Below, one piece after another: positions 14,126 to 64,000 of a DNA stretch of 64,000 nt. Every line of letters starts with the position of its first letter. Position 1 is the stretch's first letter. Origin of the DNA: a virus (Duplodnaviria; Caudoviricetes); the IMG/VR virus record IMGVR_UViG_2932410948_000001, positions 2,714 through 66,713 of that record, one strand, 5' to 3'. The position numbers and the translations under genes were made by a program. The notes beneath the pieces were generated by a model. That model did no database searches, had not been told where the DNA came from, and was given only the letters and a program-made list of their open reading frames with translations.

Positions 14126-17100
14126 TCAGGCAGGCGGCAGAATCCGCTGCACCACGCAATTGCGTCCTGCATCCTTGGCCTGGTACAGCGCGGCATCGGC
14201 CAAGCGCAGCAGGGCGTCCGGATCGGCGGCGCCCGGCGCCAACTGGATCGCGATGCCGACGCTGATCGTCACCTGTTGCGTCTGCGTACTCGCGTGGACG
14301 ATGCCCAGATCTTCGATGGCGCGCCGCAGCGCTTCGCCGATCTGCTGCGCTTCGTCCGTACCGGTATTTGGCAGCACGATTGAAAACTCTTCGCCGCCGT
14401 AGCGCGCCGTCAGGTCACCCGCGCGCCGCATGCCGGCCGCCAGCGCCTGCGCGACTCGGACCAGGCAGGTATCGCCAGCCTGATGGCCGTGACGGTCGTT
14501 GAATAACTTGAAGTAGTCGACATCGAGCATCATGACGGCGAGGGGCTGGCCGACGCGCGTGGCACGTGCACATTCGGTGCGCAGCACGTCGTCGAAATGG
14601 CGCCGGTTCGACAGGCCCGTCAGGCCATCGGTGATGGACAGGGTCGCCAGTTTGCGGTTGGCGTCTTCCAGCTGTTCCGTGCGTTCGGCAACGCGCCGCT
14701 CCAGGCTGTCATGCAGCCTGGCGCTGGAGATCGAGATCATCGCCTGTGCCCCGAGCATGCGCAGGAATGCGACGCGTTCTTCCGTAAACGAGGCGTCGGC
14801 CAGCCGGTTCTCGAAGTACAGGATGCCGTCGATCTGTCCTCCGTGCCGTATCGGCAGGCACATGACGGCGCGCGGCCGCTGCAACTGCACGTACGGATCG
14901 GCGGCAAAGCGCGAGGCATCCGTGATGCAATCCTCGATCACCTCGGCGCCAGTGCGGATGACGTAGCGCAGCAACGACAGCGGAAATTGCGGATCGCTGG
15001 CGGCGTTCAGGTTGATCTGCCGGGATTGCAGGACGGTGGTGGCGTCGCCATCGATATTGGCCTCCAGCCGGTAGCTGCCTTCGGATAGCAGCAGCAGGCG
15101 CGCTACCTGGCCGCCTGCGTTCTCGCACACGATGGAGATCAGGCGTGTCAGCACGTTGCGCAGGCCGACTTCGTTCGACAGGATTTGTGCCGCCTTCAGC
15201 AGCGATACCAGGTCGAGCGCGGAACTGCCGTGCGTGTGGGAGACGGAATGCCGCTGCGTGCTGCGGCCGTCCATTCTTGACAGCAGCGCGGCGTGGCGCC
15301 GCTGCAGCTGCGCCACCTTGCCCTCCGCGCCCCACTGGCCGTAATGCGCGATGGCGTCGCTGATGAATACACCGGCCACGCGCGCCTGTCCCTGGTCGTG
15401 CCAGCATTCGCCGCATAGTTCGTTGCCCAGCGCTTGCATGTTGACGTAGCCTGCCAGGCTGGCGGCGTCGATCGCCTGCTGATAAAGGCGCGTGGCCAGC
15501 GGCAGATCTTCGCGGTAGCGTGCCATCTCGGCCATCACCAGCAGATGTTTGGCGTCGCTATTGTCCGAGCCTTGCCTGGCCCACTCGGTGAGACTCGCCT
15601 GCAGCGTACCGATCACTGTCAGCATATCGCGCGTGTCGGCGCGCGCAGGAGCGCGCCGACACGCGCGGATCAGGATCAGCGCGGCGTAGAAGCTGCATTC
15701 GGCAACCTTGGCCTGGCCGCGCATGATCTGCGTGACGATGCCGAGTTGGCCGGCCAGCAGTTCGGCGTCTGCGCCGTCGAACAGGTAGGCGTTGCGGATC
15801 TTCCCTTGCAGGAAGTAGGCGCGGTACAGGTGCGAGTCGCCATATTGTGCGAGGAAGCGCGCCTCGCTGAAGGTCGCATCGTCGTAACTGTCATGGCGGG
15901 GCAGGAGGCCCATCAGGCACTTGATCGGCTGGACCGCGGCAGCGACGCAGCAATCGGCCATCGCCTGCTGGCCGTTGGCGCGCATCAGCGCCAGGTCGTG
16001 CTCGATGTCGTGCATCAGGTGCGGCAGGTAGTCGCCGAGGATGATCCGGTCGGTGGCGCGCACGGCCGCCACCACGCCGACCTGCACGAAATCGGCGATT
16101 TCCAGCGCCCAGCCAAACGCTTCTTCGTACAGGGCGTCTGAGCCGCGCAGCGGCTGCGTCCAGTGGTTGCTGAGCGCGCCGAACATCAGGCCCGTGAGGG
16201 TGCGCGTCTGCAGGTTGGCGCGGCGTCTGGCCAGCGCCATCGCCATCGCGCCGAAGTCGTAGCCGCGCACGACGTCGCCGCTGTACAGCGCCAGCATCAT
16301 CGCGTAGCCGACATACGCGACAGCGCTGAAATCGCTGTTCCCCCGCTGCATGGACAGGCGCGTCATCGACACCACCATTAGCGCGCTGAGATCCTGCTGG
16401 CCGGCATAGTAGCTGGCCATCCACAGGCCCTGCATCATCTGCATCGCGGCCACCGCGTCCGGCTCGCACATGTCGCCGGCCTCCAGCAAGGTCGTGGGCG
16501 CATGCGCGCCACGTTGCCGCCCGATATCGGCGAGGATATCGTTGAAGCGTGCCTTCATGTGCGCCACATCGTGCGGAATGTCGATGTCCAGCTGCGCCAG
16601 GCCGTCGCGCTGCACGGCGATGGCGTCGAGCAGGCGGCCCTGCAATTGATACTGGTGCGCCTGGATGGCAATGCAGCGTACCTGCTGCAAGGAGTTCAAG
16701 GCACGCGCGCGCACCAGTGGATAGATCGCCTCGGCGACATCAAATTGGCCACACAGGTAGGCCGCTTCCGCCGCGCCCAGCTGCAGTTCGAGCCAGAGGC
16801 CGGCGTGGACGTTCCCCGCATCCGCCGGCAGAAGGTCGAGACCGATTCGCATGTGCTCGAGGGTGGACTGGAACGCGGCAGAACGCCGTGCCTTGACGCC
16901 GGCCTGGAGATTGAGCGTCGCCAGCTGCACGCGCTCGCCCGCATCGCCGATCAGCGCACGCCCCGCGTTGAGCTGCTCGACGATGTCAAACAGTGTCTCG
17001 TCCTGGCGCTCGGGTGCCGTATGCCGCAGGAGCAGGCGACCGATGAGAAGATGGTTGGCCACGCGCGTAGCGGCATCGACGACCAGGTAGGCTGCCTGCT

Positions 17101-19168
17101 GCACCCGGTCGTGCAGGAAGCGGTAACTGACGCCGCTGTTGCCCGCATCGGTGTCGCCATTGACGTATTTATAGCGCTCGTCGAGCGGCTGGATCAATCC
17201 CGCCCTGAGTGCCGGCCACAGGTCCTGCTGTGTTTGCCGGGGAGCGCGCTCCACTGCCAGCGCAAGCGTGTCGAGCGTGAAACGGTTGCCGCTGGAGGCG
17301 GCCAGTTGCAGCAGATGCTGCGTTATTGCGGGCAGGCGGCGGATTTTTTCCAGCAGCACCTCGACCACGTTGTCGGTGTATTTGGCCTGTTCAATCGCGG
17401 GCAGGTCCCAGTCCCAGCAATCGTCGGCGGCCCGGTAGCGCAGATGCCCTGTCTCATTGAGCGCAGCGAGGAACTGGTTGAGGAAAAAGGGATTGCCTGC
17501 CGTCTTGCGGTAGCAAATGCTGGTCAGTGGCGCGCAATCGGGGGCCGCCACGCGCACGGTGGCCGAAATCATTTGCGCTACCTGCGGCTCGGTCAGCGCG
17601 TTCAGCAATAGCGTCGACAGGCGTACGTCACGCGCGAGCAGCTTGTCGCGCAGCGCGATGAGCGGGTGCGCGGCGCCCACTTCGTTGTCGCGGTACGCGC
17701 CAATGACCAGCATGCAGCTCCTGTCGCAGGAGACCATGAGCCGTTCGATCATCCGCAGCGTGGCCGCATCGGCCCACTGCAGGTCGTCGAGGAACAGCAC
17801 CAGAGGATGCCCGGCGCAGGCGAAGACTTCGACGAAGCGGGGGAACAGCCGGTCCAGGCGCAGCTGGGCTTGTGCCGGCGCCGACGCGGGCATCGCGTCG
17901 GTGGGGCCGACGATCAAGGCCAGTTGGGGAATCAGCTCGACGATCACGCCCACTCCGCTGCCCAGGGCCTGGTGCAGTTTTGCGGACCACTGCCGCAGCG
18001 TTTCCTCGGGCTGGCCGAGCAACTGGCGCACCAGCCCCTGGAAGGCCTGGATCAGCGAGGCGTACGGCACGTCGCGCTGGAGCTGGTCAAATTTGCCCGA
18101 CAAGAAACAGCCGCGCCGGGCGATGATGGGCTTTTGCACTTCGTTGACGACCGCCGACTTGCCGATACCCGAATGGCCGGCCACCAGCAGCATCTCGCAC
18201 GTGCCTGCGGCACTGCGTTCAAACGCCGCCAGCAGCACGGCGATGGCATCCTCGCGCCCATGCAGCGTTTGCGGAACGAGAAAGCGGCCGTTGTGGTCGG
18301 ACAGTTTGAGCGCTTGCGCCGGCTTGTTCGCGCGGCATGCTTCGAGGTCGCTGCGCAAGCCTTGCAGGCTCTGATAGCGTTGATCGGCATTTTTTTCCAG
18401 CAGCCGCTGGATGATCGGCAGCAGCTGGCCAGGCAAGTCTGCGAACGCCGGGTGCGACCAGTCAGGACTGCGCGCAATGTGGCAATGCACGAGTTCCATT
18501 TCATCGCCCGCCTCGAACGGCGCCTGGCCGGCCAGCAGTTCGTAGAAGGTGGCGCCGAGGGCATAGAAATCGGCGCGCCAATCGACTCGCCGGTTCATGC
18601 GCCCGGTCTGTTCCGGCGCCATGTAACGCAGCGTGCCTTCCAGTGTCTGGAGATTGACGATGCCATGGCTTTCAGAGGGCAGTTCACAGGCGATGCCGAA
18701 ATCGATCAGCTGCAGCAGGCGCCGGTTATCGTTCCACACCAGATTGGAGGGATTGATATCCTTGTGGATTACGCCATGGCGATGGACCTCGTCCAGCGCC
18801 GCGCACAGTTGCAGCGCGATGTCGAAAAAATCGTCCAGCGCCAATGCGGCCTGCGACGGTGTCCTGCGCGCCGCCACCTGCGCGCGCAATACCTGGTCAA
18901 GCGCCAGGCCGCCGGCATCTTCCTGAATCATCGTCCAGTGCCCGCCGTGCAGCTGCAGTGCCAGCGGACGCGCCACGCCCGGATGGCGGCAGCGGCGCGC
19001 GATCGCATACTCGCGCTTGAATTGTGCCAGTTGCTGAAATGAGGGGAACTGCTGATTCGGCATCTTGACGATCAGCGCCGTGCCATCGGCGGCCCTGGCG
19101 CGGTAAACCCGCGAGCGGGCACCGCGGTGCAGCTGATTGATGATCTCGTGGTCGAAAAGGGAGCGCAT
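14126..19168 (-). CDS. Ser/Thr kinase-like + AAA ATPase + helical repeat + GAF + GGDEF diguanylate cyclase
   Basis: HKDINPSN/IDFG kinase motifs; Walker A GHSGIGKS; Walker B LFLDDLQWAD; GAF (MCLPIRHGG..GILYFEN); RAGD I-site and RYGGEEF. Probable start MRSLFD. Confidence 0.92.
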   Translation of the reverse strand: MRSLFDHEIINQLHRGARSRVYRARAADGTALIVKMPNQQFPSFQQLAQFKREYAIARRCRHPGVARPLALQLHGGHWTMIQEDAGGLALDQVLRAQVAARRTPSQAALALDDFFDIALQLCAALDEVHRHGVIHKDINPSNLVWNDNRRLLQLIDFGIACELPSESHGIVNLQTLEGTLRYMAPEQTGRMNRRVDWRADFYALGATFYELLAGQAPFEAGDEMELVHCHIARSPDWSHPAFADLPGQLLPIIQRLLEKNADQRYQSLQGLRSDLEACRANKPAQALKLSDHNGRFLVPQTLHGREDAIAVLLAAFERSAAGTCEMLLVAGHSGIGKSAVVNEVQKPIIARRGCFLSGKFDQLQRDVPYASLIQAFQGLVRQLLGQPEETLRQWSAKLHQALGSGVGVIVELIPQLALIVGPTDAMPASAPAQAQLRLDRLFPRFVEVFACAGHPLVLFLDDLQWADAATLRMIERLMVSCDRSCMLVIGAYRDNEVGAAHPLIALRDKLLARDVRLSTLLLNALTEPQVAQMISATVRVAAPDCAPLTSICYRKTAGNPFFLNQFLAALNETGHLRYRAADDCWDWDLPAIEQAKYTDNVVEVLLEKIRRLPAITQHLLQLAASSGNRFTLDTLALAVERAPRQTQQDLWPALRAGLIQPLDERYKYVNGDTDAGNSGVSYRFLHDRVQQAAYLVVDAATRVANHLLIGRLLLRHTAPERQDETLFDIVEQLNAGRALIGDAGERVQLATLNLQAGVKARRSAAFQSTLEHMRIGLDLLPADAGNVHAGLWLELQLGAAEAAYLCGQFDVAEAIYPLVRARALNSLQQVRCIAIQAHQYQLQGRLLDAIAVQRDGLAQLDIDIPHDVAHMKARFNDILADIGRQRGAHAPTTLLEAGDMCEPDAVAAMQMMQGLWMASYYAGQQDLSALMVVSMTRLSMQRGNSDFSAVAYVGYAMMLALYSGDVVRGYDFGAMAMALARRRANLQTRTLTGLMFGALSNHWTQPLRGSDALYEEAFGWALEIADFVQVGVVAAVRATDRIILGDYLPHLMHDIEHDLALMRANGQQAMADCCVAAAVQPIKCLMGLLPRHDSYDDATFSEARFLAQYGDSHLYRAYFLQGKIRNAYLFDGADAELLAGQLGIVTQIMRGQAKVAECSFYAALILIRACRRAPARADTRDMLTVIGTLQASLTEWARQGSDNSDAKHLLVMAEMARYREDLPLATRLYQQAIDAASLAGYVNMQALGNELCGECWHDQGQARVAGVFISDAIAHYGQWGAEGKVAQLQRRHAALLSRMDGRSTQRHSVSHTHGSSALDLVSLLKAAQILSNEVGLRNVLTRLISIVCENAGGQVARLLLLSEGSYRLEANIDGDATTVLQSRQINLNAASDPQFPLSLLRYVIRTGAEVIEDCITDASRFAADPYVQLQRPRAVMCLPIRHGGQIDGILYFENRLADASFTEERVAFLRMLGAQAMISISSARLHDSLERRVAERTEQLEDANRKLATLSITDGLTGLSNRRHFDDVLRTECARATRVGQPLAVMMLDVDYFKLFNDRHGHQAGDTCLVRVAQALAAGMRRAGDLTARYGGEEFSIVLPNTGTDEAQQIGEALRRAIEDLGIVHASTQTQQVTISVGIAIQLAPGAADPDALLRLADAALYQAKDAGRNCVVQRILPPA

Positions 19169-19297
19169 GGGCTGGGCTTGGCAGTACACAGACAGTTGCG
19201 GGAGCCCTGAGGCGCACATTTCGGAATATTAGTTGATTGTTAGTATTATATCAGTAGGGAGTCGTGTGGGAGGGAGCGGGGCGATGGGGTTTGTTGT

Positions 19298-52898: not shown

Positions 52899-52960
52899 TT
52901 AGCCTAAGGCTAAACGGCACGCAAGCCATATGCGAATGTATTTTTTTAGCCTAATGCTAT
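52899..52960. promoter_or_regulatory. OR operators (TTAGCC-N3-RGCTAA)
   Basis: TTAGCCTAAGGCTAA (52899), degenerate CAAGCCATATGCGAA (52922), TTAGCCTAATGCTAT (52946) between cro and cI. Confidence 0.75.
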
Positions 52961-52971
52961 TTAATGACGCT

Positions 52972-53688
52972 ATGAAAACAATAGATGAAATTCGGCGAGA
53001 TAATCTTGCTACCATTGTTGCGGAGTGTGGCGGCGTGACGGCGTTGGCGGATCTCCTGCAAAAAAGCGTCTCTCAGGTTAGCCAATGGTTGAACGGTTCG
53101 GCCAATTCAGGTACTGGCAAAGCGCGTGGCATGCGGCCTTCTTCATGCAGGGAAATTGAACTGGCATGCAAAAAACCGCTAGGTTGGATGGATGCGAGCC
53201 ACGGCATAGTCCCGAGGGAGTTGGTAATGCATGACCTGAGTTCCCAACCGCCCAAAAAAGGTGACGAGATAGGAATTCCACAATACGATACTGGAGGATC
53301 GATGGGATCTGGGGTACTGCTACGGGATCAGCCGGGTGAAATCAACGGATGGAGGGTTACGCCTGAATGGCTTCAAAAAAACGTGCGAAGCCACTCAGGC
53401 GTAAATAACCTGGCGATCGTCACCGGCTTCGGCGACTCAATGCGTGGTATGTTCAACCCAGGCGACCCATTGTTAGTTGATCGCGGAATCAATAGCTTTG
53501 ATGGCGACGCGGTATACTTTTTCCGCGTGGGGGACGAGGGGTTCATCAAGCGGCTGCAAAAAATTCCTGGTGAAGGCATCATTGCATCCTCGGAAAATAA
53601 AGCTTACCGAGACTGGACGATCAAGCCGCACATGGATTTTCAAGTTCTAGCTCGTGTTATCAAAGTTTGGCAAAGCGTTGACTTTTGA
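52972..53688 (+). CDS. CI-like repressor (HTH + S24 peptidase)
   Basis: Start MKTIDEIRRDNL; GSMGSG cleavage region, GFGDSM, FIKRLQ. Confidence 0.92.
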   Translation: MKTIDEIRRDNLATIVAECGGVTALADLLQKSVSQVSQWLNGSANSGTGKARGMRPSSCREIELACKKPLGWMDASHGIVPRELVMHDLSSQPPKKGDEIGIPQYDTGGSMGSGVLLRDQPGEINGWRVTPEWLQKNVRSHSGVNNLAIVTGFGDSMRGMFNPGDPLLVDRGINSFDGDAVYFFRVGDEGFIKRLQKIPGEGIIASSENKAYRDWTIKPHMDFQVLARVIKVWQSVDF

Positions 53689-55958: not shown

Positions 55959-56008
55959 TTAGCCATAAGCTAAAATTAGAGCTTGCATTGCGGTTAGCCT
56001 TAAGCTAA
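55959..56008. promoter_or_regulatory. OL operators / PL early promoter
   Basis: TTAGCCATAAGCTAA (55959) and TTAGCCTTAAGCTAA (55994) match the OR consensus; TTGCAT between them is a possible -35. Confidence 0.75.
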
Positions 56009-56049
56009 AGTTTGCCCATCGAACAGAAACATCCACCGATGGAGGCCCC

Positions 56050-56391
56050 ATGGCACCGCTTACAGAAGCAGCAGTACCTACCGACAGCACCCACATAACC
56101 ATCCCATTTCTCAGCTTTGCGATGTGCCGCAGTGAGATTAATGCGAACGTCGAACCGCAACATCCCGAAGATCTAGCCGCTCTGAAGAGGATCGCCACTG
56201 ATCTGTATCACGAACTGCTCGCGGACGACGCCGTCATTACCGAAATGACGAACAACATGTCCGTGACGCAAAAGCGCGTCGCCAGCACCAACTTGTACGA
56301 AGCTGGTTTTGTGGGCGCCAGCGGCGGCATGATGCGCGCCGCCGAACGTCACAAAGTCTTGGCTGCGTCGGAAGCGGCAGGCATCAAATGA
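56050..56391 (+). CDS. Early hypothetical phage protein
   Basis: First ORF after PL; ATGA-coupled to the next gene. Confidence 0.55.
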   Translation: MAPLTEAAVPTDSTHITIPFLSFAMCRSEINANVEPQHPEDLAALKRIATDLYHELLADDAVITEMTNNMSVTQKRVASTNLYEAGFVGASGGMMRAAERHKVLAASEAAGIK

Positions 56392-56726
56392 AGACCGCCA
56401 TCCAGCAAATAGCCAGTACCTCAATCAGCCCAGTGACCCTAGAGGCGCGCGTGCGCCGCATCGCCCTGGTGCTGACCAACCGCGTACAGCGCAATGCGGT
56501 GGGTTCCACCTACAGCCTGGCCAACGAGCGTGGTGAAAAGATTGCCCTGGTATCAATTGCCCAGCAAGGCCTCGGATCGACACACCGCGCGGCAATGCGC
56601 ATGGCGTTGTCCAGCGAGCTGGCGGGCGCGCTTCGCGCAGCCAGCACGGACTATGAGTTGCGCGGTGCGGTGTCGCCCGAAACCATGAACCGTATGCGCC
56701 AGCTCCTCGCCACTGTGGACGCATGA
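56388..56726 (+). CDS. Early hypothetical phage protein
   Basis: Coupled ORF in the early operon. Confidence 0.55.
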   Translation: MKTAIQQIASTSISPVTLEARVRRIALVLTNRVQRNAVGSTYSLANERGEKIALVSIAQQGLGSTHRAAMRMALSSELAGALRAASTDYELRGAVSPETMNRMRQLLATVDA

Positions 56727-56866
56727 TGGGCACCTTCATTGTCACCGTACGCCGGGCCGCCGAGCCGCTGCTCACCTATTCGGCCTTGGGTACCGACAGC
56801 GCCGCCATGATCATGGCTGCAATCGATCGCTATGGACCGTGCGTCATCACCGCGAAACCTCGTTGA
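56723..56866 (+). CDS. Small early protein (47 aa)
   Basis: MMGTFIVTVRRAAEPLLTYSALGTDSAAMIMAAIDRYGPCVITAKPR; ATGA-coupled. Confidence 0.55.
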   Translation: MMGTFIVTVRRAAEPLLTYSALGTDSAAMIMAAIDRYGPCVITAKPR

Positions 56867-56877
56867 AAGAGCCCGTC

Positions 56878-56979
56878 ATGCGCACCATTTTCAACCTGTT
56901 TAGTTTTTACCGCCGCCGCGGCGCCAGCATCTACATCGCCGCGCGTCGCGCCTTGCACGTCTATCGAAACGGATTCTGA
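56878..56979 (+). CDS. Small basic early peptide (33 aa)
   Basis: MRTIFNLFSFYRRRGASIYIAARRALHVYRNGF; fills the gap exactly before the ATG at 56981. Confidence 0.45.
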   Translation: MRTIFNLFSFYRRRGASIYIAARRALHVYRNGF

Positions 56980-56980
56980 C

Positions 56981-57169
56981 ATGACCAAGATCGAACCCGA
57001 CCGCGCCGCGCTGGAAATCGCCTACGGCCAACTGCATACCACCAGGCCACTCGACGAGCTGCTCAAGGTGCCAAATCTGCGGGCCACGCTGTACGCGGTG
57101 GCGCGCCGCCACATGAAGCGCCGTGACCGGTTCGATCCGAAAAAAATGCAGGCGAACGACAACGATTAA
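56981..57169 (+). CDS. Small early protein (62 aa)
   Basis: C-terminal RFDPKKMQAND; sits in the operon run. Confidence 0.6.
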   Translation: MTKIEPDRAALEIAYGQLHTTRPLDELLKVPNLRATLYAVARRHMKRRDRFDPKKMQANDND

Positions 57170-57213
57170 TTCCGAGCAACACCAACCGCAGCACCAACCA
57201 TAGAAAGCACGCC

Positions 57214-57798
57214 ATGTTTACAGCATTGCACGCGCTCACCCAAAGCGCGACGCTGATGATCGTCGTCACCGCCGAGGGCGACTATCTGCGCGTCAGCATC
57301 ACCCCGACCCAGGCCGGCGATAAGACCAAGGCCCACAAGTTGCAGCCGCTGTCGCTGGTGGCCAGCCCGGCCGAGCTGGACGACGGCTTTGCCGCGGCCA
57401 TCCAATCCTGGCAGGCGCCGAAGCTGTCGCTGCAGCAGCAGGTCGAGGCCGCGAACTCCGCCGGCGCCGATCCCGTCGCGCCTTCAGGCAGCACTAAAGC
57501 GGCGTCGAAAGAGGCGGGCAAGCGCACAGGCCCAGGGCGGCCGAAAAAGAACGAAGGTGCAGCACCAGTCGGCGAAGGCACGGCCGTCACCGCCGATAAG
57601 GCAGGCAAACAAGACGACCAGCCTCCACCCGGCAACGACGCCGGAGCTGGAGAAGCACCGGGCGCGGCCACCCAGGATGGCGCCGTGCCACCAGCTGGCG
57701 CCACTGATGTTGAAGAGAAGGAAGAAAACACGTTGCCGCCTGCCAGCAACGCCGCAATCACCGCCGCCGTCGACACGGTAACCCTCGACCTGTTCTAA
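57214..57798 (+). CDS. PRTRC system protein E
   Basis: MFTALHAL...LRVSITP...PLSLVASPAELDDGFAAAI N-terminal domain plus a low-complexity tail ending in LDLF. Confidence 0.85.
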   Translation: MFTALHALTQSATLMIVVTAEGDYLRVSITPTQAGDKTKAHKLQPLSLVASPAELDDGFAAAIQSWQAPKLSLQQQVEAANSAGADPVAPSGSTKAASKEAGKRTGPGRPKKNEGAAPVGEGTAVTADKAGKQDDQPPPGNDAGAGEAPGAATQDGAVPPAGATDVEEKEENTLPPASNAAITAAVDTVTLDLF

Positions 57799-57812
57799 GA
57801 AAGCTATCTGCC

Positions 57813-58208
57813 ATGGCAATGCAAATCGAAAAACTGATCCGCGAATTCCGTTATAACGGCGTGGTGCTGCAAGACCCGAACAGCACCTTCAACCTGGTGC
57901 AGGTGCGCGACTTCTACGCCACGGTCTACCCTGAAATCATCAGCGCCGATATCGAGGGCCCCGAGCAGTTGGGCGCCAAATCGGTCTATACTTTCCGTCG
58001 CGCCGTCGGCACCAAGGGCTGCGAGCTGACGAGCCTTATCCTTGACGTCGGGGCCTTGCTGCACGCCAACTGGCTCGATGGCGATGACGCCGAATTCATC
58101 AAGGAACTGCAGGCCGCCGTGGGCCGCAACGAAGTGACGTTCATCGACCACGATGCGCGAGTGCGCCTGGCCGAACTGCACGGCAAACACTGCAACGTGG
58201 CGGCTTGA
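57813..58208 (+). CDS. PRTRC system protein C (ubiquitin-like) with 62-aa C-terminal extension
   Basis: REFRYNG..L.DP...QVRDFYA..YPEI..A.IEGP...YTFRRAVGTKG, then continues in frame. Confidence 0.88.
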   Translation: MAMQIEKLIREFRYNGVVLQDPNSTFNLVQVRDFYATVYPEIISADIEGPEQLGAKSVYTFRRAVGTKGCELTSLILDVGALLHANWLDGDDAEFIKELQAAVGRNEVTFIDHDARVRLAELHGKHCNVAA

Positions 58209-58411
58209 CCATGTTGACGCGCAAAACTGCAATCGCGCGGCTGCGCGAAGCCGGCACCCTGGCTTCAAGCGGCGTGCCGGCCAATACGATTACCCCGGCC
58301 GAGGTGAATTCGCTCCTGGCTCAAGCGCTGGCCAGCACCCTGGTACGCGACAAAACGCGCAACAGCCCGCGCTTGCTGGCGCCGTCGTTCGCCCACGTGG
58401 TGCTGCCATGA
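58205..58411 (+). CDS. Small hypothetical protein in the PRTRC cassette
   Basis: 68-aa ORF coupled to both C and F. Confidence 0.55.
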   Translation: MTMLTRKTAIARLREAGTLASSGVPANTITPAEVNSLLAQALASTLVRDKTRNSPRLLAPSFAHVVLP

Positions 58412-59460
58412 TCGGGCCGGGCCTGCTGGCGATGCCAACCCTGCATGCGGGCATTCCGTCGGCCGTGCGCTTGCGCGAGCCAAATAGCTTGGTCGCGCCT
58501 CTTTCAATTGCGCTGCTGCAGGCAAACCAGATTACCGAAGCCATGCTCAAGCCGCGCCCGAACGCGCTGCTGGTCGGGGTATTTGCGGAGCCGGACGAAA
58601 GGGCGCTAGCAGTGAAGGCCCTGAGCACCTGGTGGACCTCGATCCAGTATTACGCCAAATATTTCAGCTGGGGCCTGCATGTGCAGCAGCTGCCTGAAGA
58701 TGGATATCACCACCAACATGAATCAGGCACCATCTGGTTTTGCATGACCAGGAATACAGACGTTCCGATGCCGCGTTTCGCCCTAGAGCCGCGCATTACC
58801 GAGATGGAGCAGCACCTGGCCGGCTTCGGGCAGACAGTGCTGGCCGTACTTTTCGATGCCACGATGTACCTGCCGAATGCGCTGGACCCGTGGCGCGCGG
58901 TCAGCGCGGCAGAGTGGCTGCACTGGCACGAATGCCAGACGGACGAAGAATTGCTCGAAGATCAGCGCGAGGAGCGCGGCTACGACACCATCCAGCAGGT
59001 GATCGACGATGGCGACATTCTGACGCGAGCCGAATTTTACGGCGACATGCCGCGCTGGGTAACGCACCCAGCACGCGTGCTGTCGCGCGGCGAGATCGTC
59101 GCCGCCGCCAGCAACAGCTTTCACCACGACGTGATTGCCGCCTGCGATGCCATTGCCGCGCTGGTCAACGGCCCGGAATTTACTATTCGGCCACATGAGG
59201 TAGGCGCGCACAACTATCCGGCCGACTGCGTTGATGGCTGCATGGTGCTGCTGTGGCGAGATAACGACCAGATCAGCCGCGTGCTCGATGACGAATTGAA
59301 CATGCACGGCGAATCGGGCGAATACATCGAATTCATCGACGTTCACGGGATGGTGCCGTCGGGCGCCGCCATCAAAAAATATCAATCGCGTACCCGCCAG
59401 GTCATGCAATTGGCCCAGCTCACCGAGCGCCTGCTGGAACTGATCGGAGAACCTATATGA
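58408..59460 (+). CDS. PRTRC system protein F
   Basis: Start MIGPGLLAMPTL; LEPRITEME....GFGQTVLAVL motif; position between C and B. Confidence 0.8.
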   Translation: MIGPGLLAMPTLHAGIPSAVRLREPNSLVAPLSIALLQANQITEAMLKPRPNALLVGVFAEPDERALAVKALSTWWTSIQYYAKYFSWGLHVQQLPEDGYHHQHESGTIWFCMTRNTDVPMPRFALEPRITEMEQHLAGFGQTVLAVLFDATMYLPNALDPWRAVSAAEWLHWHECQTDEELLEDQREERGYDTIQQVIDDGDILTRAEFYGDMPRWVTHPARVLSRGEIVAAASNSFHHDVIAACDAIAALVNGPEFTIRPHEVGAHNYPADCVDGCMVLLWRDNDQISRVLDDELNMHGESGEYIEFIDVHGMVPSGAAIKKYQSRTRQVMQLAQLTERLLELIGEPI

Positions 59461-60206
59461 AAACCGTAGCCATCATAGCCGCCGGCGACACCACGCTTAG
59501 CCTGAGCGGTGCCTTGCTGCTGTACCAGGCGGACAATCATGGCGGCCCTATCTACGCCACGACGCACGGGATCGTGATCGATGCCAATAACCCTGAGCGC
59601 CGCGTGATCGGGCCCGGTGTGCCGATGACGCAATCCGCCCTGGCGGCGTTTGCCGCGCGAGTTAGCGTCAAAACCGCCTACGCCGGCTTTGTGCCTGAAA
59701 ATTTGTTGTACACGGCGCCGAACATGATCGCCTGGTGGACGCCCGCGGCGGTGCGCACCACCTGGTTCAAATCAAATTACCCCGAGATCGGCACCACCCA
59801 CGGCCCGGCAGCGCATCCGGCCCTGGTGTTTGTTGCCGTGCCCGGCGGATGGTATGTATTCGCCCTACGCGACTCGGCCAGGCCTGGCCCCGCGACAACC
59901 CTGTATCACTCGCCGCACTTCAATGTGTGGGATGGCGGCCGCATTTGTACCGGTAATGTAGACCTGCCCGAAGCGCTCGCCGCCAGTGCGATACCCGCCT
60001 ATGAAGACGCATTTTTTCGAAGCCACTTCACCCACTCGAACCGGCAGACGCCGCATTCGGTGAAAACCAAGGGCGGCACGAAAGCCCTGTGGGTCAGCCA
60101 GCTGGCCAAGCCGGACCCTGACGCTATGCGCAGCGCGCTTGCGTCAACGAAAGAAGATTTACAAAGCGCGATTGCGCGCATCACGCAAAGCAACAGCAAC
60201 CAATAA
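59457..60206 (+). CDS. PRTRC system protein B (E2-like)
   Basis: HPALVF...YVFAL...LYHSPHFNVWDGGRICTGNV...YEDAFFRSHFTH. Confidence 0.88.
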   Translation: MKTVAIIAAGDTTLSLSGALLLYQADNHGGPIYATTHGIVIDANNPERRVIGPGVPMTQSALAAFAARVSVKTAYAGFVPENLLYTAPNMIAWWTPAAVRTTWFKSNYPEIGTTHGPAAHPALVFVAVPGGWYVFALRDSARPGPATTLYHSPHFNVWDGGRICTGNVDLPEALAASAIPAYEDAFFRSHFTHSNRQTPHSVKTKGGTKALWVSQLAKPDPDAMRSALASTKEDLQSAIARITQSNSNQ

Positions 60207-60229
60207 CCATCAAAACCAAAGGACACACG

Positions 60230-61021
60230 ATGAACGGCCAAGATCTTGCAATGAAATTCGATGAACTGCTCAATATCACCAAAACGTCCTACGAGGCGTT
60301 CCTGCTGCACACCGAAACGGCGCTGCGCGACGCGCGCCCGCTGCTGCTGGCGGTCGACGAAGAAGCGGCCGATCCGGAAAAACTGGCCATGGATATGGCG
60401 CTGTTGCGCGCCGCGCCGGTCGTCGTGGTGCCGTTGCACAGCGAGTTTCACGCGCTGGAGGAAGCCGGCCACCGCTTCCTGATGGCTGATGACGGCGTCT
60501 ACCTGGAGGTGCGCCGGCCGTGGCTGCACCTGATCCAGCGCCTGGCGGAGCAAAAAGCGGTGCGCATGCCGTTTGGCGCCATCGTGCCCAAGGTCGAATT
60601 CGCGTTTGGAAAGATCGGTACCGCGCTTGCGGAATTGCGCGCTTTTGGTGAGGTGGCGCGCCTGCAGTCCCCGATCGAGAGCGCGGCCAGCTTGATCTGG
60701 AACGACGAAACGCGCGAATGGGCCTTGCGCTATCCATTGCCGATCGGCGAACCGACCAGCGGCCACATCCAGTACCAGCAGTTGTTGCTGGCAGAGCGCG
60801 AGCACCTGACCATCGACTTGCATAGCCATGGCGCGCATCCGGCGTTTTTCAGTGAGACCGACAACCTGGACGACGCCGGCAGCGTGAAAATTTCCGGCGT
60901 GTACGGCAACCTAGACCAGCAGCTGCCGACGGTCGCATTCCGACTGTGCGTGCTGGGCCTGTTCATAACGCTGGCGGTACCGGCCGACAAGATTTTCACG
61001 GCCGAACTGGCCACCGCGTAG
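60230..61021 (+). CDS. PRTRC system protein A (JAB/JAMM metalloprotease)
   Basis: GHRFLMA.DGVYLEVRRPWL N-terminus; JAMM motif E...DLHSHG...AFFSETDNLDD. Confidence 0.9.
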   Translation: MNGQDLAMKFDELLNITKTSYEAFLLHTETALRDARPLLLAVDEEAADPEKLAMDMALLRAAPVVVVPLHSEFHALEEAGHRFLMADDGVYLEVRRPWLHLIQRLAEQKAVRMPFGAIVPKVEFAFGKIGTALAELRAFGEVARLQSPIESAASLIWNDETREWALRYPLPIGEPTSGHIQYQQLLLAEREHLTIDLHSHGAHPAFFSETDNLDDAGSVKISGVYGNLDQQLPTVAFRLCVLGLFITLAVPADKIFTAELATA

Positions 61022-61032
61022 GAGCCATCGAC

Positions 61033-61806
61033 ATGCCCCACATTACTCCCGCGCATTTCCTGCAGCACCAGGTGATGATTCACTTGGTGGGCTGCGGCGG
61101 CAACGGCTCGCAAATGCTGACCGGCCTGGCGCGCCTCAACCACGCGCTGACGGCACTGGGCCACCCCGGCCTGAACGTGATCGCGTTCGACCCGGACACG
61201 GTCAGCGAGGCCAACATGGGTCGTCAAATGTTTGGCCAGTTCGACGTCGGATCGAGCAAGGCGATCGTGCTGGTCAGCCGCATCAACGCATTTTTCGGCC
61301 TGAACTGGGAGGCCCATTTCGGCCGATACGAAGCTGGCAAGGGTGCGCCGGACATGCTGATCGCCTGCGTCGATAGTGCCAAGTCGCGCTATGAAATCGT
61401 CAACAGCCGTGCAATGCGCCATCCTAACAAACCGTTTTACCTGATGGACATGGGCAACCGCGCCGCAGATGGCCAGGTGCTGTTCGGCGAGCTGGCCGGC
61501 TCGGACGGCAGCCCGGCACTCACGAAGGCGCCACCCGGCAGCGTGCGTCTGCCCGACCCTTACCGCGTGTTGCCCGAACTGGTCGACATTACGGCCGTCG
61601 AGGACGACACGCCCAGCTGCGGCCTGGCCCAGGCGCTCGAGCGCCAGGAATTATTCATCAACCAGGCCGTGGTCACTCCGGCGCTGTCGATTCTATGGGA
61701 ATTCTTCCGGCACGGCCGCCTGACTTGGCATGGCGCCTTTGTCAACCTGCGAACGGGGAGCATGCGGCCGCTATTAGTGAAAGATACTGAAGATTTCTAT
61801 AAATAA
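61033..61806 (+). CDS. PRTRC system ThiF family protein (E1-like)
   Basis: LVGCGGNGS, DPDTVSEANMGRQ, ACVDS, candidate catalytic PSC, QELFINQ. Confidence 0.92.
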   Translation: MPHITPAHFLQHQVMIHLVGCGGNGSQMLTGLARLNHALTALGHPGLNVIAFDPDTVSEANMGRQMFGQFDVGSSKAIVLVSRINAFFGLNWEAHFGRYEAGKGAPDMLIACVDSAKSRYEIVNSRAMRHPNKPFYLMDMGNRAADGQVLFGELAGSDGSPALTKAPPGSVRLPDPYRVLPELVDITAVEDDTPSCGLAQALERQELFINQAVVTPALSILWEFFRHGRLTWHGAFVNLRTGSMRPLLVKDTEDFYK

Positions 61807-62767: not shown

Positions 62768-63040
62768 ATGATTAAAATGATAGATTCAGAAATTGATGTA
62801 TTGCTTAAGCTGACAGAGGCAATAGAAAAAATGCAGCGGCCAGCGATGCCGATATCTGTCGACCTTTGGGATACGTCATGTCTTGCCGCCTATTTCAAGC
62901 GATCGACTAATCGCGTACGTAGCGATATTGTCTGTCTCCCTACGTTCCCTCGCCCAATCCGGTTGCCAGTGGAGGGGCGCTCGCAGGCGCTGTACAAGGC
63001 ACGTGAGGTAATCGCATGGGCAGAAAAACATACCTCATAG
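62768..63040 (+). CDS. Excisionase-like DNA-binding protein
   Basis: LWDTSCLAAYFKRS...LPTFPRPIRLP...LYKAREVIAWAE winged-helix; convergent with the integrase. Confidence 0.7.
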   Translation: MIKMIDSEIDVLLKLTEAIEKMQRPAMPISVDLWDTSCLAAYFKRSTNRVRSDIVCLPTFPRPIRLPVEGRSQALYKAREVIAWAEKHTS

Positions 63041-64000
63041 TTTCCCCGCGATATCGTCGGCAGTTGCGTTGTAATACGTCTGCAGTTGCCGGATATCGCG
63101 GTGTCCGACCATGCGCGCCAGATCCAGCACACCAAGCTTGCCGGCCAGGCGCGTGATGGCTTCGTGTCTGGTATCGTGGAAGGTGAGACCTTTGACACCA
63201 GCCCGCTCACGGGCCTTGCGGAAAAGAGCATCGAGGGAGGCGGAAGAGATATCAAAACCGTCGGGCACCATCGCCCATATTTCTTGCGCGCGCGGAGAAA
63301 GCGCCACATCCCGAGGAAAACCATTCTTCGTCATTTTCAACCTGGCCACGCGTCCCGATATATCCGCCTTGCCCAGACCGCATATTTCTCCCGCACGCAT
63401 AGCCGTTTCAATAGCGAACAGGAAGGCGAGGGCGATGCGATGCTGTTTCGTCGTCGGTACCATACCGGGGGCCTTTTGATCCCAACCCAGGGCCAGGCAG
63501 ATGGCTGTGATTTCGTCCTCGCTTATCAGCCTGTCCCTGGGCGGCTTGACCTTCGGCCGTGCCACATCGGTCGTGGGACTCTTCGACAGCCACTTCCATT
63601 CCTTACGCGCCACCGAGAACACGTGCGACAGCAGGTTCATTTCCCGATTTACCGTTGCCCCGGATACGGTCCTGAGCCTCTCATCACGCCAGGCGGCCAC
63701 GTGGGTTTCATCGACGTCAGCGATTTTCACGGCGCCAAGGGATGTGGCGCCCATGGCGGCCAGTCGGTTGACCTCCCAGCGCATGCCGGCTTTATTCCTA
63801 GAAACCTCGCGCTCGTACCGATCAAAAGCATCTTTGCACGTCTCTTCGACAACTTTGGCCTTGCCATCGGCCAGCTTCACGCGCTGGCTTGCCTCCCAGG
63901 CGAGGGCGGCCGCCTTGGTTTCAAAGGTGCCAGATACCCGAATACCCTTGACCATGAGGCGATGTCGCCAAATCTTGCCATCCTTGACCGGAGCTGCCAT
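63035..64000 (-). CDS. Tyrosine recombinase / prophage integrase
   Basis: Catalytic R (AIETAMR), K (TKNG), HDTRH, GH, Y (LQTYYN). ATG falls at the window edge. Confidence 0.95.
   Translation of the reverse strand: MAAPVKDGKIWRHRLMVKGIRVSGTFETKAAALAWEASQRVKLADGKAKVVEETCKDAFDRYEREVSRNKAGMRWEVNRLAAMGATSLGAVKIADVDETHVAAWRDERLRTVSGATVNREMNLLSHVFSVARKEWKWLSKSPTTDVARPKVKPPRDRLISEDEITAICLALGWDQKAPGMVPTTKQHRIALAFLFAIETAMRAGEICGLGKADISGRVARLKMTKNGFPRDVALSPRAQEIWAMVPDGFDISSASLDALFRKARERAGVKGLTFHDTRHEAITRLAGKLGVLDLARMVGHRDIRQLQTYYNATADDIAGKL

What the first reader, a model, noticed from the sequence alone, without database searches (positions are those of the whole stretch)
57813..58208. Ubiquitin-like protein C is a precursor fusion: GTKG is internal and followed by a 62-aa domain
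Seen: residues 1-69 end in RRAVGTKG (codon ends at 58019), then the frame continues CELTSLILDVG...HGKHCNVAA for 62 codons. The extension has GC3-rich phage-like codons, contains no Met, and its stop overlaps the next gene. Known: as I recall, PRTRC C proteins normally end at GTKG, and Ubl activation needs a free C-terminal Gly; JAB proteases process Ubl precursors. Inference: the cognate JAB (protein A) must cleave after TKG, both licensing conjugation and releasing a small acidic/His-Cys peptide as a co-produced effector, analogous to ubiquitin-ribosomal protein fusions.
Basis: partly seen in the sequence, partly recalled or inferred. Interest (0 to 1): 0.72.

Follow-up and report, generated by a model that had tools for sequence, protein, structure and literature searches.

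The report
Phage ubiquitin-like protein made as precursor
A prophage's ubiquitin-like protein is made with an extra 62-residue helical domain after its activating glycine; related phages carry other unrelated tails at the same position, so the tag must almost certainly be cut free before it can work.

Summary
ORF 57813-58208 (131 aa) is PRTRC protein C (Prok_Ub). Its profile ends at G69 of an invariant RRAVGTKG, and 62 more in-frame residues (X) follow.

X is not a lone stop-loss:
- It recurs in about 23 of 157 related loci, always fused behind the Ubl.
- It was never found free-standing.
- It evolves under purifying selection.
- It is predicted to be a three-helix bundle with invariant D78, W87, H123 and C127, and matches no known family or fold.

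The window is a prophage. In this phage-borne PRTRC lineage, 132 of 157 loci encode a Ubl with a tail of 30 aa or more. The tails are four mutually unrelated modules (X, Z, W, V), or a direct fusion to a conserved, unannotated 60-70 aa protein Y. Where Y is not fused it is the next gene (here 58211-58411).

Two things mark the glycine as the maturation site. Some relatives end exactly at GTKG or 1-5 residues later. And small junction changes convert free Y into fused Y.

Four sampled plasmid PRTRC C genes end at or near the glycine.

Cleavage by protein A (JAMM motif intact) is inferred, not shown. It has experimental precedent in BilA/BilC and BubAB/BubCD. The function of X is unknown.

This scan earlier noted precursor Ubls in crAss-like phage cassettes on other DNA. 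Verdict: a new variant of a known kind.

The parts
57214..57798 (+). PRTRC protein E, first gene of the cassette
   Evidence: TIGR03741 at 69.2 bits and PF19556. It is co-conserved with C-X at 83-96% nt identity to L002.
57813..58019 (+). Ubiquitin-like domain of PRTRC protein C (residues 1-69)
   Evidence: TIGR03738 and PF14454 match residues 4/5-67/69. The AF2 model shows beta-grasp secondary structure at residues 9-62.
58008..58019 (+). GTKG motif (G66-G69), the inferred maturation and activation site after G69
   Evidence: RRAVGTKG or HRAVGTKG is present in all 77 genome loci. Short relatives end exactly here. AF2 pLDDT is below 50 at residues 65-70, a flexible linker.
58020..58208 (+). 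Tail module X (residues 70-131, plus the stop codon): a three-helix domain found only as a C-terminal fusion of PRTRC C
   Evidence: X has no Pfam, NCBIfam or PHROG family. AF2 on X alone gives pLDDT 87 and helices at 3-15, 21-35 and 44-58. D78, L82, W87, L122, H123 and C127 are invariant. dN/dS is 0.07-0.09 against the closest relatives. No free-standing copy was found.
58211..58411 (+). Small protein Y (66 aa), an unannotated conserved component; in other loci it is fused directly to the Ubl glycine
   Evidence: Y aligns end to end with the tails of the 133-134 aa Ubl fusions at 40-46% identity, E about 1e-14. A Y-like ORF lies directly upstream of F in most related loci inspected. Its stop overlaps the start of F (ATGA).
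58408..59460 (+). PRTRC protein F (alpha-hel2)
   Evidence: TIGR03742 at 65.1 bits.
59457..60206 (+). PRTRC protein B, E2-like (Prok-E2_D)
   Evidence: TIGR03737 at 195 bits and PF14460.
60230..61021 (+). PRTRC protein A, DUF2016 plus JAB/JAMM peptidase; the inferred processing enzyme
   Evidence: TIGR03735 at 208 bits, PF09436 and PF14464. H198, H200, S208 and D211 are invariant in 20 homologues, forming an HxH-x7-S-xx-D motif.
61033..61806 (+). PRTRC ThiF-family E1-like adenylating enzyme
   Evidence: TIGR03736 at 292 bits and PF00899.

Best explanation
Protein C of this prophage's PRTRC cassette is translated as a two-domain pro-protein. It has a beta-grasp ubiquitin-like domain ending in the invariant RRAVGTKG, a flexible junction, and a 62-residue three-helix module (X).

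Proposed sequence of events:
1. The E1-like ThiF protein can adenylate only a free C-terminal carboxylate (established E1 chemistry), so the pro-protein is inert.
2. A peptidase cuts after G69. This is most probably the cassette's own JAB/JAMM protein A.
3. Cutting yields the mature Ubl, which can then be activated, and one molecule of X per Ubl.

X is a lineage-specific accessory protein that exists only as this fusion. In sister phages the same slot holds unrelated modules, or the otherwise free-standing protein Y. The Ubl therefore acts as a removable N-terminal carrier, comparable to ubiquitin-ribosomal protein fusions and to the bacterial BubAB pre-protein.

Shown here: the architecture, its conservation, purifying selection, and the variability of the slot. 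Inferred: the cleavage itself, the identity of the protease, and any activity of released X.
For: 1. Both family profiles end exactly at G69.
2. All 202 homologues of 72-230 aa keep an internal GTKG followed by a tail. 29 short forms end at GTKG or 1-3 residues later.
3. Of 157 related loci, 25 have tails of 0-5 aa and 132 have long tails. The long tails are Y fusions (43), Z (38), X (22, plus the window), W (19), V (6) and other (4). The X, Z, W and V profiles show no mutual similarity by hhalign.
4. The junction is labile. Free Y in L014 follows GGC TGA, 9 nt, then ATG. Fused Y in L015 and L019 keeps its Met, in frame, two codons after the glycine. L029 has a GTGA start/stop overlap. On an A+ThiF tree of 141 cassettes the tail state changes at least 18 times. 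This is tolerable only if fused and free products are equivalent, meaning the fusion is cut.
5. X is a real domain. dN/dS is 0.07-0.09 against L002 and L003, with 12 synonymous versus 5 non-synonymous codon differences. Six residues are invariant across 12 diverged copies. AF2 gives a confident three-helix bundle at pLDDT 87. In the full-length model the junction residues 65-70 have pLDDT below 50.
6. The residue after the glycine is mostly small: A, G, N, T, S or C in 69 of 77 tails.
7. Protein A has an intact JAMM motif. No plus-strand promoter-like or terminator-like site interrupts the operon.
8. There is experimental precedent. The JAB BilC cuts BilA after its reactive glycine and also cuts a BilA-GFP fusion (PMC10557695). 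The JAB domain of BubCD cuts the Ubl-E2 pre-protein BubAB immediately after its conserved glycine (PMC11601596). JAB release of fused Ubls was predicted in 2006 (PMC1779556).
Against: - No direct evidence of cleavage exists for any PRTRC system, and I found no experimental study of its function.
- 16% of related cassettes work with no tail, so X is not needed for the core pathway.
- Between X subclades dN/dS rises to 0.4-1.3. This could mean relaxed constraint rather than function.
- X has no known fold relative, no known partner and no invariant lysine, so a role after release is unproven.
- One 69-aa relative at 97% identity ends at GTKG (P0122). It lies on an 850-bp contig, and I could not check whether it is a true short form or a truncated gene call.
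Confidence: 0.65

Rival explanations
1. X is only a pro-peptide. It caps the glycine, and perhaps masks the Ubl, to keep it inactive until the JAB is made. After removal it has no function and is degraded.
For: Relatives have 1-5 residue caps, as do BilA and many eukaryotic Ubls. The tails are non-homologous between lineages. X diverges quickly between subclades. No partner or fold relative was found.
Against: One to three residues are enough for capping, yet X keeps a confident fold and six invariant residues, including a D/W/H/C set, and is under strong purifying selection among close relatives. The same slot carries Y, which is an independent gene product in other loci. AF2 predicts no fixed packing of X on the Ubl (pTM 0.42).
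Confidence: 0.2
2. The protein is never cut. It works as an intact two-domain protein in which the beta-grasp domain is a non-conjugated Ubl domain, as in Rad23 or parkin.
For: Most members of this lineage have long tails. Conjugation has not been shown for any PRTRC system.
Against: GTKG is invariant, and relatives that end exactly there sit in the same clade. E1, E2 and JAB genes are kept in every cassette. Repeated fusion and fission with Y by small junction changes would repeatedly create and destroy such a two-domain protein. The junction is predicted to be flexible.
Confidence: 0.08
3. The tail is a non-functional read-through: a recent stop-codon loss in GC-rich DNA, where open frames are long by chance.
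For: The DNA is GC-rich, and spurious long ORFs overlap the region on the other strand.
Against: X is conserved in frame in about 23 loci from several genera, down to 23-30% identity, with invariant residues. Synonymous changes outnumber non-synonymous ones.
Confidence: 0.02

Closest known systems
Type I Bub operons: BubAB pre-protein cut by the JAB domain of BubCD (Ye et al. 2024, PMC11601596)
   Same: A bacterial Ubl is translated fused at its C-terminus to another folded protein. A JAB/JAMM peptidase from the same operon cuts immediately after the conserved glycine, giving an activatable Ubl plus a second functional protein.
   Different: In Bub the tail is the pathway's own E2, and the peptidase is fused to the E1. 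Here E2, JAB and E1 are separate genes. The tail is a 62-aa three-helix module of no known family, and it is swapped for unrelated modules between lineages. Cleavage is untested here.
BilABCD: BilA pre-processing by the JAB BilC (Chambers et al., PMC10557695)
   Same: The Ubl carries residues after its reactive glycine. The cognate JAB removes them, and it also cuts a large artificial C-terminal fusion (GFP).
   Different: The natural BilA tail in the studied system is one residue. Bil is a host anti-phage defence, whereas this cassette is carried by the phage and belongs to a different family (PRTRC).
Plasmid/ICE PRTRC cassette (ParB, E, C, F, B, A, ThiF; TIGR03735-03742)
   Same: The same families appear in the same order (E, C, F, B, A, ThiF), all above the curated cut-offs.
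   Different: In the four plasmid cassettes sampled, C is 67-74 aa and ends 0-5 residues after the glycine, a ParB gene precedes E, and no gene is annotated between C and F. The phage lineage has no ParB gene next to E, has the extra gene Y, and mostly has long tails on C. Its Ubl is under 60% identical to all but one plasmid copy.
Eukaryotic ubiquitin fusion precursors (ubiquitin-L40/UBA52, ubiquitin-S27a/RPS27A, polyubiquitin); from established knowledge, not tested here
   Same: The modifier is made as an N-terminal fusion that must be cut after the terminal Gly. The tail is an unrelated small protein produced 1:1 with the modifier.
   Different: The eukaryotic tails are fixed ribosomal proteins, and the cutting enzymes are mostly cysteine DUBs. 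Here the tail is variable and the candidate enzyme is a JAMM metallopeptidase.
Phage tail assembly proteins TAPI/TAPK (Iyer, Burroughs and Aravind 2006, PMC1779556)
   Same: A phage-encoded Ub-like domain with a C-terminal glycine is associated with a JAB peptidase predicted to release it.
   Different: That system has no E1 or E2 and has a structural role. It belongs to a different family.

Membership tests
PRTRC system protein C / Prok_Ub (TIGR03738, PF14454) | Profile match above the curated cut-off | tested here: met
   93.2 bits against a cut-off of 45.95, and 82.8 bits against 25, covering residues 4/5-67/69.
PRTRC system protein C / Prok_Ub (TIGR03738, PF14454) | Beta-grasp (ubiquitin-like) fold | tested here: inconclusive
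   AF2 secondary structure fits a beta-grasp fold: strands at 9-14, 17-19, 46-53 and 56-62, and a helix at 28-36. Foldseek gives only weak, non-significant matches to SUMO1, NEDD8 and UBX, with E above 0.4.
PRTRC system protein C / Prok_Ub (TIGR03738, PF14454) | Encoded next to the PRTRC E, F, B (E2), A (JAB) and ThiF (E1) genes | tested here: met
   All five are above their cut-offs, in the order E-C-(Y)-F-B-A-ThiF. The same order is seen in related loci.
PRTRC system protein C / Prok_Ub (TIGR03738, PF14454) | Translated product ends at or within a few residues of the conserved glycine (as in plasmid cassettes) | tested here: not met
   62 residues follow G69. In the four plasmid copies sampled, 0-5 residues follow the glycine.
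Plasmid/ICE PRTRC cassette | PRTRC ParB-family gene adjacent to E | tested here: not met
   The two ORFs tested upstream of E (56050-56391 and 56388-56726) match no family. ParB precedes E in all four plasmid loci. The rest of the prophage was not scanned for ParB.
JAB-processed Ubl pro-proteins (BilA/BilC, BubAB/BubCD type) | Extra residues after the conserved C-terminal glycine of the Ubl | tested here: met
JAB-processed Ubl pro-proteins (BilA/BilC, BubAB/BubCD type) | Cognate JAB/JAMM peptidase with intact catalytic motif in the same operon | tested here: met
   PF14464 and TIGR03735 both match. H198, H200, S208 and D211 are invariant.
JAB-processed Ubl pro-proteins (BilA/BilC, BubAB/BubCD type) | Cleavage immediately after the glycine, dependent on the JAB active site | not testable with these tools
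   This needs a co-expression or in vitro assay.
Ubiquitin-ribosomal protein fusions | Tail is a ribosomal protein | tested here: not met
   X matches no Pfam, NCBIfam or PHROG family. This is an analogy of mechanism only.

The most novel reading that the evidence does not exclude
Phage-borne PRTRC cassettes use their ubiquitin-like protein as a universal carrier that the JAB can remove, with an exchangeable cargo slot behind the glycine. X, Z, W and V would then be interchangeable small effectors aimed at host or rival-phage targets, for example anti-defence factors. Each would be made 1:1 with the Ubl and switched on by the same cut that licenses conjugation. That would make this a modular delivery scheme comparable to the variable C-termini of polymorphic toxins.
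Probability: 0.25. Interest if true: 0.8.

Novelty: new variant of a known kind. Interest (0 to 1): 0.58.

Why it matters
PRTRC cassettes are widespread on plasmids, ICEs and prophages, yet I found no study of their function. A 2026 prophage survey still describes the cassette's function as unstudied (PMC13366799).

This work shows that the phage-borne lineage almost always makes its Ubl as a pro-protein. It also shows that the position after the glycine is a hot spot where unrelated small domains, or the neighbouring gene, are attached. Three things follow:
1. A simple biochemical entry point: does protein A cut C-X after G69?
2. Two new protein families to characterise: X, and the conserved small protein Y.
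3. A natural parallel to ubiquitin fusion genes and to BubAB, which suggests that carrier-type Ubl precursors arose repeatedly.

It also matters for annotation. These 130-230 aa products are all labelled simply 'PRTRC system protein C', and Y is usually unnamed.

Tried and rejected
- **Lone stop-loss:** rejected.
- **X related to Y or to the other tail modules:** hhalign gave probabilities of 2% or less. Only Y and Y2 are related, at 75% probability, E 2.5e-5.
- **X elsewhere in protein space:** phmmer of X against 1.84 billion representatives found only a 131-aa Ubl-X protein, plus three marginal hits (E about 5e-4) in large repeat or surface proteins, judged spurious. A word-index search for free-standing X of 30-71 aa found nothing. 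The ESM Atlas gave no usable hit.
- **Fold of X:** the wide PDB search gave only generic three-helix bundles at Z 6 or below. The top match was the Bre1 Rad6-binding domain 7w75_C (Z 6.0, rmsd 2.9, 60 aligned), which is below the level that means anything for helical bundles. The viral structure library gave nothing with E below 1. The PDB sequence-profile search gave nothing.
- **Long tails (150-226 aa):** a Pfam scan found no domain between the Ubl and X.
- **Other libraries:** PHROGs has no family for any cassette protein. PADLOC gave only generic E1 similarity.
- **Breadth of sampling:** a search of 401 Pseudomonadota genomes with TIGR03738 hit only 5, too few to estimate how common tails are across the whole family. 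The four genomes other than the query's own had tails of 5, 69, 0 and 0 aa.

Full report
**What is in the sequence**

ORF 57813-58208 on the plus strand encodes 131 residues. Residues 62-69 read RRAVGTKG, and the G69 codon ends at 58019. The frame then continues for 62 codons (58020-58205) to TGA at 58206-58208.

NCBIfam TIGR03738 (PRTRC_C, 93.2 bits) and Pfam PF14454 (Prok_Ub, 82.8 bits) cover only residues 4/5-67/69, and both profiles end at the glycine. The tail, called X here, matches nothing in Pfam, NCBIfam, PHROGs or PADLOC.

The surrounding genes form a complete PRTRC cassette:
- E: 57214-57798
- C-X: 57813-58208
- a 66-aa ORF with no family, called Y here: 58211-58411
- F: 58408-59460
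- B, E2-like: 59457-60206
- A, DUF2016 plus JAB: 60230-61021
- ThiF-like E1: to 61806

All named families score above their curated cut-offs. No plus-strand promoter-like or terminator-like site lies inside the run. GC3 of X is 0.81, against 0.73-0.81 for the neighbours.

The window is a prophage. It has a large terminase, portal, head protease/major head protein, tape measure, tail fibres and a CI-like repressor at 52930-53688, and the last ORF of the window (63035-64000, minus strand) resembles a tyrosine integrase by sequence inspection (no family search was run on it). The source record is an IMG/VR provirus.

**The tail is not a lone stop-loss**

A word-index search returned 202 homologues of 72-230 aa. 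All 119 listed homologues that include the motif region keep an internal GTKG followed by more sequence; one 117-aa hit lacks that stretch. It also returned 29 forms of 67-70 aa that end at GTKG or 1-3 residues later.

I then fetched 77 loci from species-representative genomes and 80 loci from IMG/VR viral contigs, most of them 35-50 kb. RRAVGTKG (HRAVGTKG in two loci) is present in all 77 genome loci. Tail states across the two sets:

| Tail state | Genome loci (77) | Viral loci (80) |
|---|---|---|
| Short, 0-5 aa | 16 | 9 |
| Y fusion | 13 | 30 |
| Z | 11 | 27 |
| X | 10 | 12 |
| W | 19 | 0 |
| V | 6 | 0 |
| Other | 2 | 2 |

In total 132 of 157 loci have long tails. X-type tails occur in Janthinobacterium, Duganella, Collimonas, Massilia and Herminiimonas elements. 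Sometimes a 20-90 residue linker sits between the glycine and X.

**X is a real, constrained domain**

- Against its closest relatives, X shows 12 synonymous versus 5 non-synonymous codon differences (L002) and 10 versus 3 (L003). The Ubl itself shows 15 versus 8.
- Nei-Gojobori dN/dS is 0.07-0.09 for X and about 0.15 for the Ubl.
- Between X subclades dN/dS rises to 0.4-1.3, so X diverges faster than the Ubl over longer distances.
- Twelve copies down to 23% identity keep D78, L82, W87, L122, H123 and C127.
- AlphaFold2 on the full protein gives a beta-grasp domain (residues 9-62), a low-confidence junction (pLDDT below 50 at 65-70) and three helices. The pTM of 0.42 indicates no fixed packing between the domains.
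- X alone folds confidently as a three-helix bundle (pLDDT 87, pTM 0.71).
- Fold searches give only generic helical-bundle matches.
- X was not found outside PRTRC C, nor as a free-standing ORF.

**The slot behind the glycine is variable, and Y explains much of it**

The window's ORF Y aligns end to end (40-46% identity, E about 1e-14) with the tails of the commonest 133-134 aa homologues. In those phages the Ubl is therefore fused directly to Y.

A Y-like ORF lies immediately upstream of F in most related loci inspected, either free or fused. It is 60-70 aa, has an N-terminal helix of the type TLxxLRxxLxxGxL, and has a C-terminus ending in PVLP, PLLP or PPLP. Here its stop overlaps the start of F (ATGA).

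Where an extra module (X or Z) is present, it is always in frame with the Ubl, and Y follows as a separate gene 2-10 nt later. Modules X, Z, W and V show no profile similarity to each other or to Y.

The junction DNA shows how easily the states interconvert:
- L014 has GGC-TGA, 9 nt, then ATG-ACG-CTC (free Y).
- L015 and L019 read GGC, two codons, then ATG-ACG-CTC in frame (fused Y that keeps its Met).
- L029 has a GTGA start/stop overlap.

On a maximum-likelihood tree of concatenated A and ThiF proteins from 141 cassettes, the tail state changes at least 18 times by parsimony. Shuffled labels give about 84 changes. One example is a Y fusion (L119) nested among Z-type cassettes, with local support 0.98.

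**What this implies for mechanism**

E1 enzymes adenylate a free C-terminal carboxylate (established knowledge). A Ubl with 62 residues after its glycine therefore cannot enter the pathway unless it is cut.

Several observations fit the view that the fusion is resolved post-translationally at the glycine:
- Mature-length forms, 1-5 residue caps, Y fusions and module fusions coexist in one clade with an invariant GTKG.
- Y repeatedly fuses to and separates from the Ubl.
- The junction is predicted to be flexible.
- The residue after the glycine is usually small (A, G, N, T, S or C in 69 of 77 viral tails).

The obvious enzyme is protein A. Its JAMM residues H198, H200, S208 and D211 are invariant in 20 homologues.

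This step is an inference, but it has direct precedent. BilC trims BilA after its reactive glycine and cleaves a BilA-GFP fusion (PMC10557695). The JAB domain of BubCD cleaves the Ubl-E2 pre-protein BubAB immediately after its conserved glycine (PMC11601596). Iyer and colleagues predicted in 2006 that JAB peptidases release fused Ubls (PMC1779556).

**What X does after release is unknown**

I favour a released accessory or cargo protein over a mere cap, for three reasons. One to three residues are enough for capping. X keeps a fold and an invariant Asp/Trp/His/Cys set. And the same slot carries Y, a bona fide separate protein elsewhere.

The pure pro-peptide reading cannot be excluded. A quarter of genome loci and a ninth of viral loci do without any tail.

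**Relation to canonical PRTRC**

Plasmid copies of the Ubl are, with one exception, under 60% identical to this one. In four plasmids examined (pMOL28, and plasmids of Sphingobium, Burkholderia cenocepacia and Pelobacter) the order is ParB-E-C-F-B-A. C is 67-74 aa and ends 0-5 residues after the glycine, and no gene is annotated between C and F.

The phage-borne lineage differs in having no ParB gene next to E, having the extra gene Y, and mostly carrying tails. A small unbiased sample of other Pseudomonadota genomes gave tails of 5, 69, 0 and 0 residues, so tails are not confined to this clade.

**Mosaic structure**

Against the Janthinobacterium psychrotolerans element (L002), nucleotide identity is 83-96% across E, C and X. 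It falls abruptly to 47-70% at the X|Y boundary and stays low through Y, F and B, then recovers to about 75-90% in A and ThiF. X therefore travels with the Ubl, while Y, F and the E2 form a fast-diverging block. A 2026 preprint independently reports PRTRC protein B as a recurrent mutational hot spot in a Phocaeicola prophage (10.64898/2026.10.01.756045).

**Novelty and limits**

JAB-processed Ubl precursors, including fusions to a folded protein, are already known. Phage-borne PRTRC cassettes have been noted in passing (PMC13366799). This scan has also reported precursor Ubls in unrelated crAss-like phage cassettes.

I found no earlier description of the following:
- the pro-protein architecture as the norm in phage-type PRTRC;
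- a variable module slot behind the glycine;
- the X family;
- Y as a conserved cassette component.

No cleavage, conjugation or binding was tested.

Noticed in passing
window 58211-58411 (+): A 66-aa ORF (Y) between C and F matches no Pfam, NCBIfam or PHROG family. It is nevertheless conserved directly upstream of F in most related phage-type PRTRC cassettes inspected, and in about a quarter of them it is fused to the Ubl. Its stop overlaps the start of F (ATGA).
   Followed up: partly
window 57200-61800 compared with L002: There is a sharp mosaic break at the X|Y boundary (58208). E-C-X is 83-96% identical to the J. psychrotolerans element, Y-F-B is only 47-70% identical, and A-ThiF is 75-90% identical. 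Y, F and the E2 appear to diverge or recombine as a unit.
   Followed up: partly
window 55959-57214 and the cassette as a whole: The phage cassette has no ParB-family gene next to E, unlike the four plasmid PRTRC loci examined. The two small ORFs tested upstream of E (56050-56391 and 56388-56726) have no family.
   Followed up: partly
L016, L018, L020, L022, L024-L027, L052, L054, L058 and 27 viral loci: A second fused tail family (Z) has a conserved AHVCPLLDEE..F..AL.ARY motif and is found in Paraburkholderia/Burkholderia elements. Like X, it has a conserved His and Cys but no detectable homology to X.
   Followed up: partly
L007, L010, L011, L017 and proteins P0046, P0051, P0055: Some X-type tails carry an extra 20-90 residue segment between the glycine and X. 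By eye a few look like winged-helix domains, but Pfam found nothing.
   Followed up: partly
window 14126-19219 (-): A 1697-aa ORF has an N-terminal serine/threonine-kinase-like match (phrog_2361) and a C-terminal domain shared with several PHROGs of unknown function. It lies beyond the tail genes and is possibly a defence or accessory gene.
   Followed up: no
window 57813 versus 57819: There are two in-frame ATGs. Relatives begin at the Met corresponding to 57819, so the annotated N-terminus may be two residues too long.
   Followed up: no
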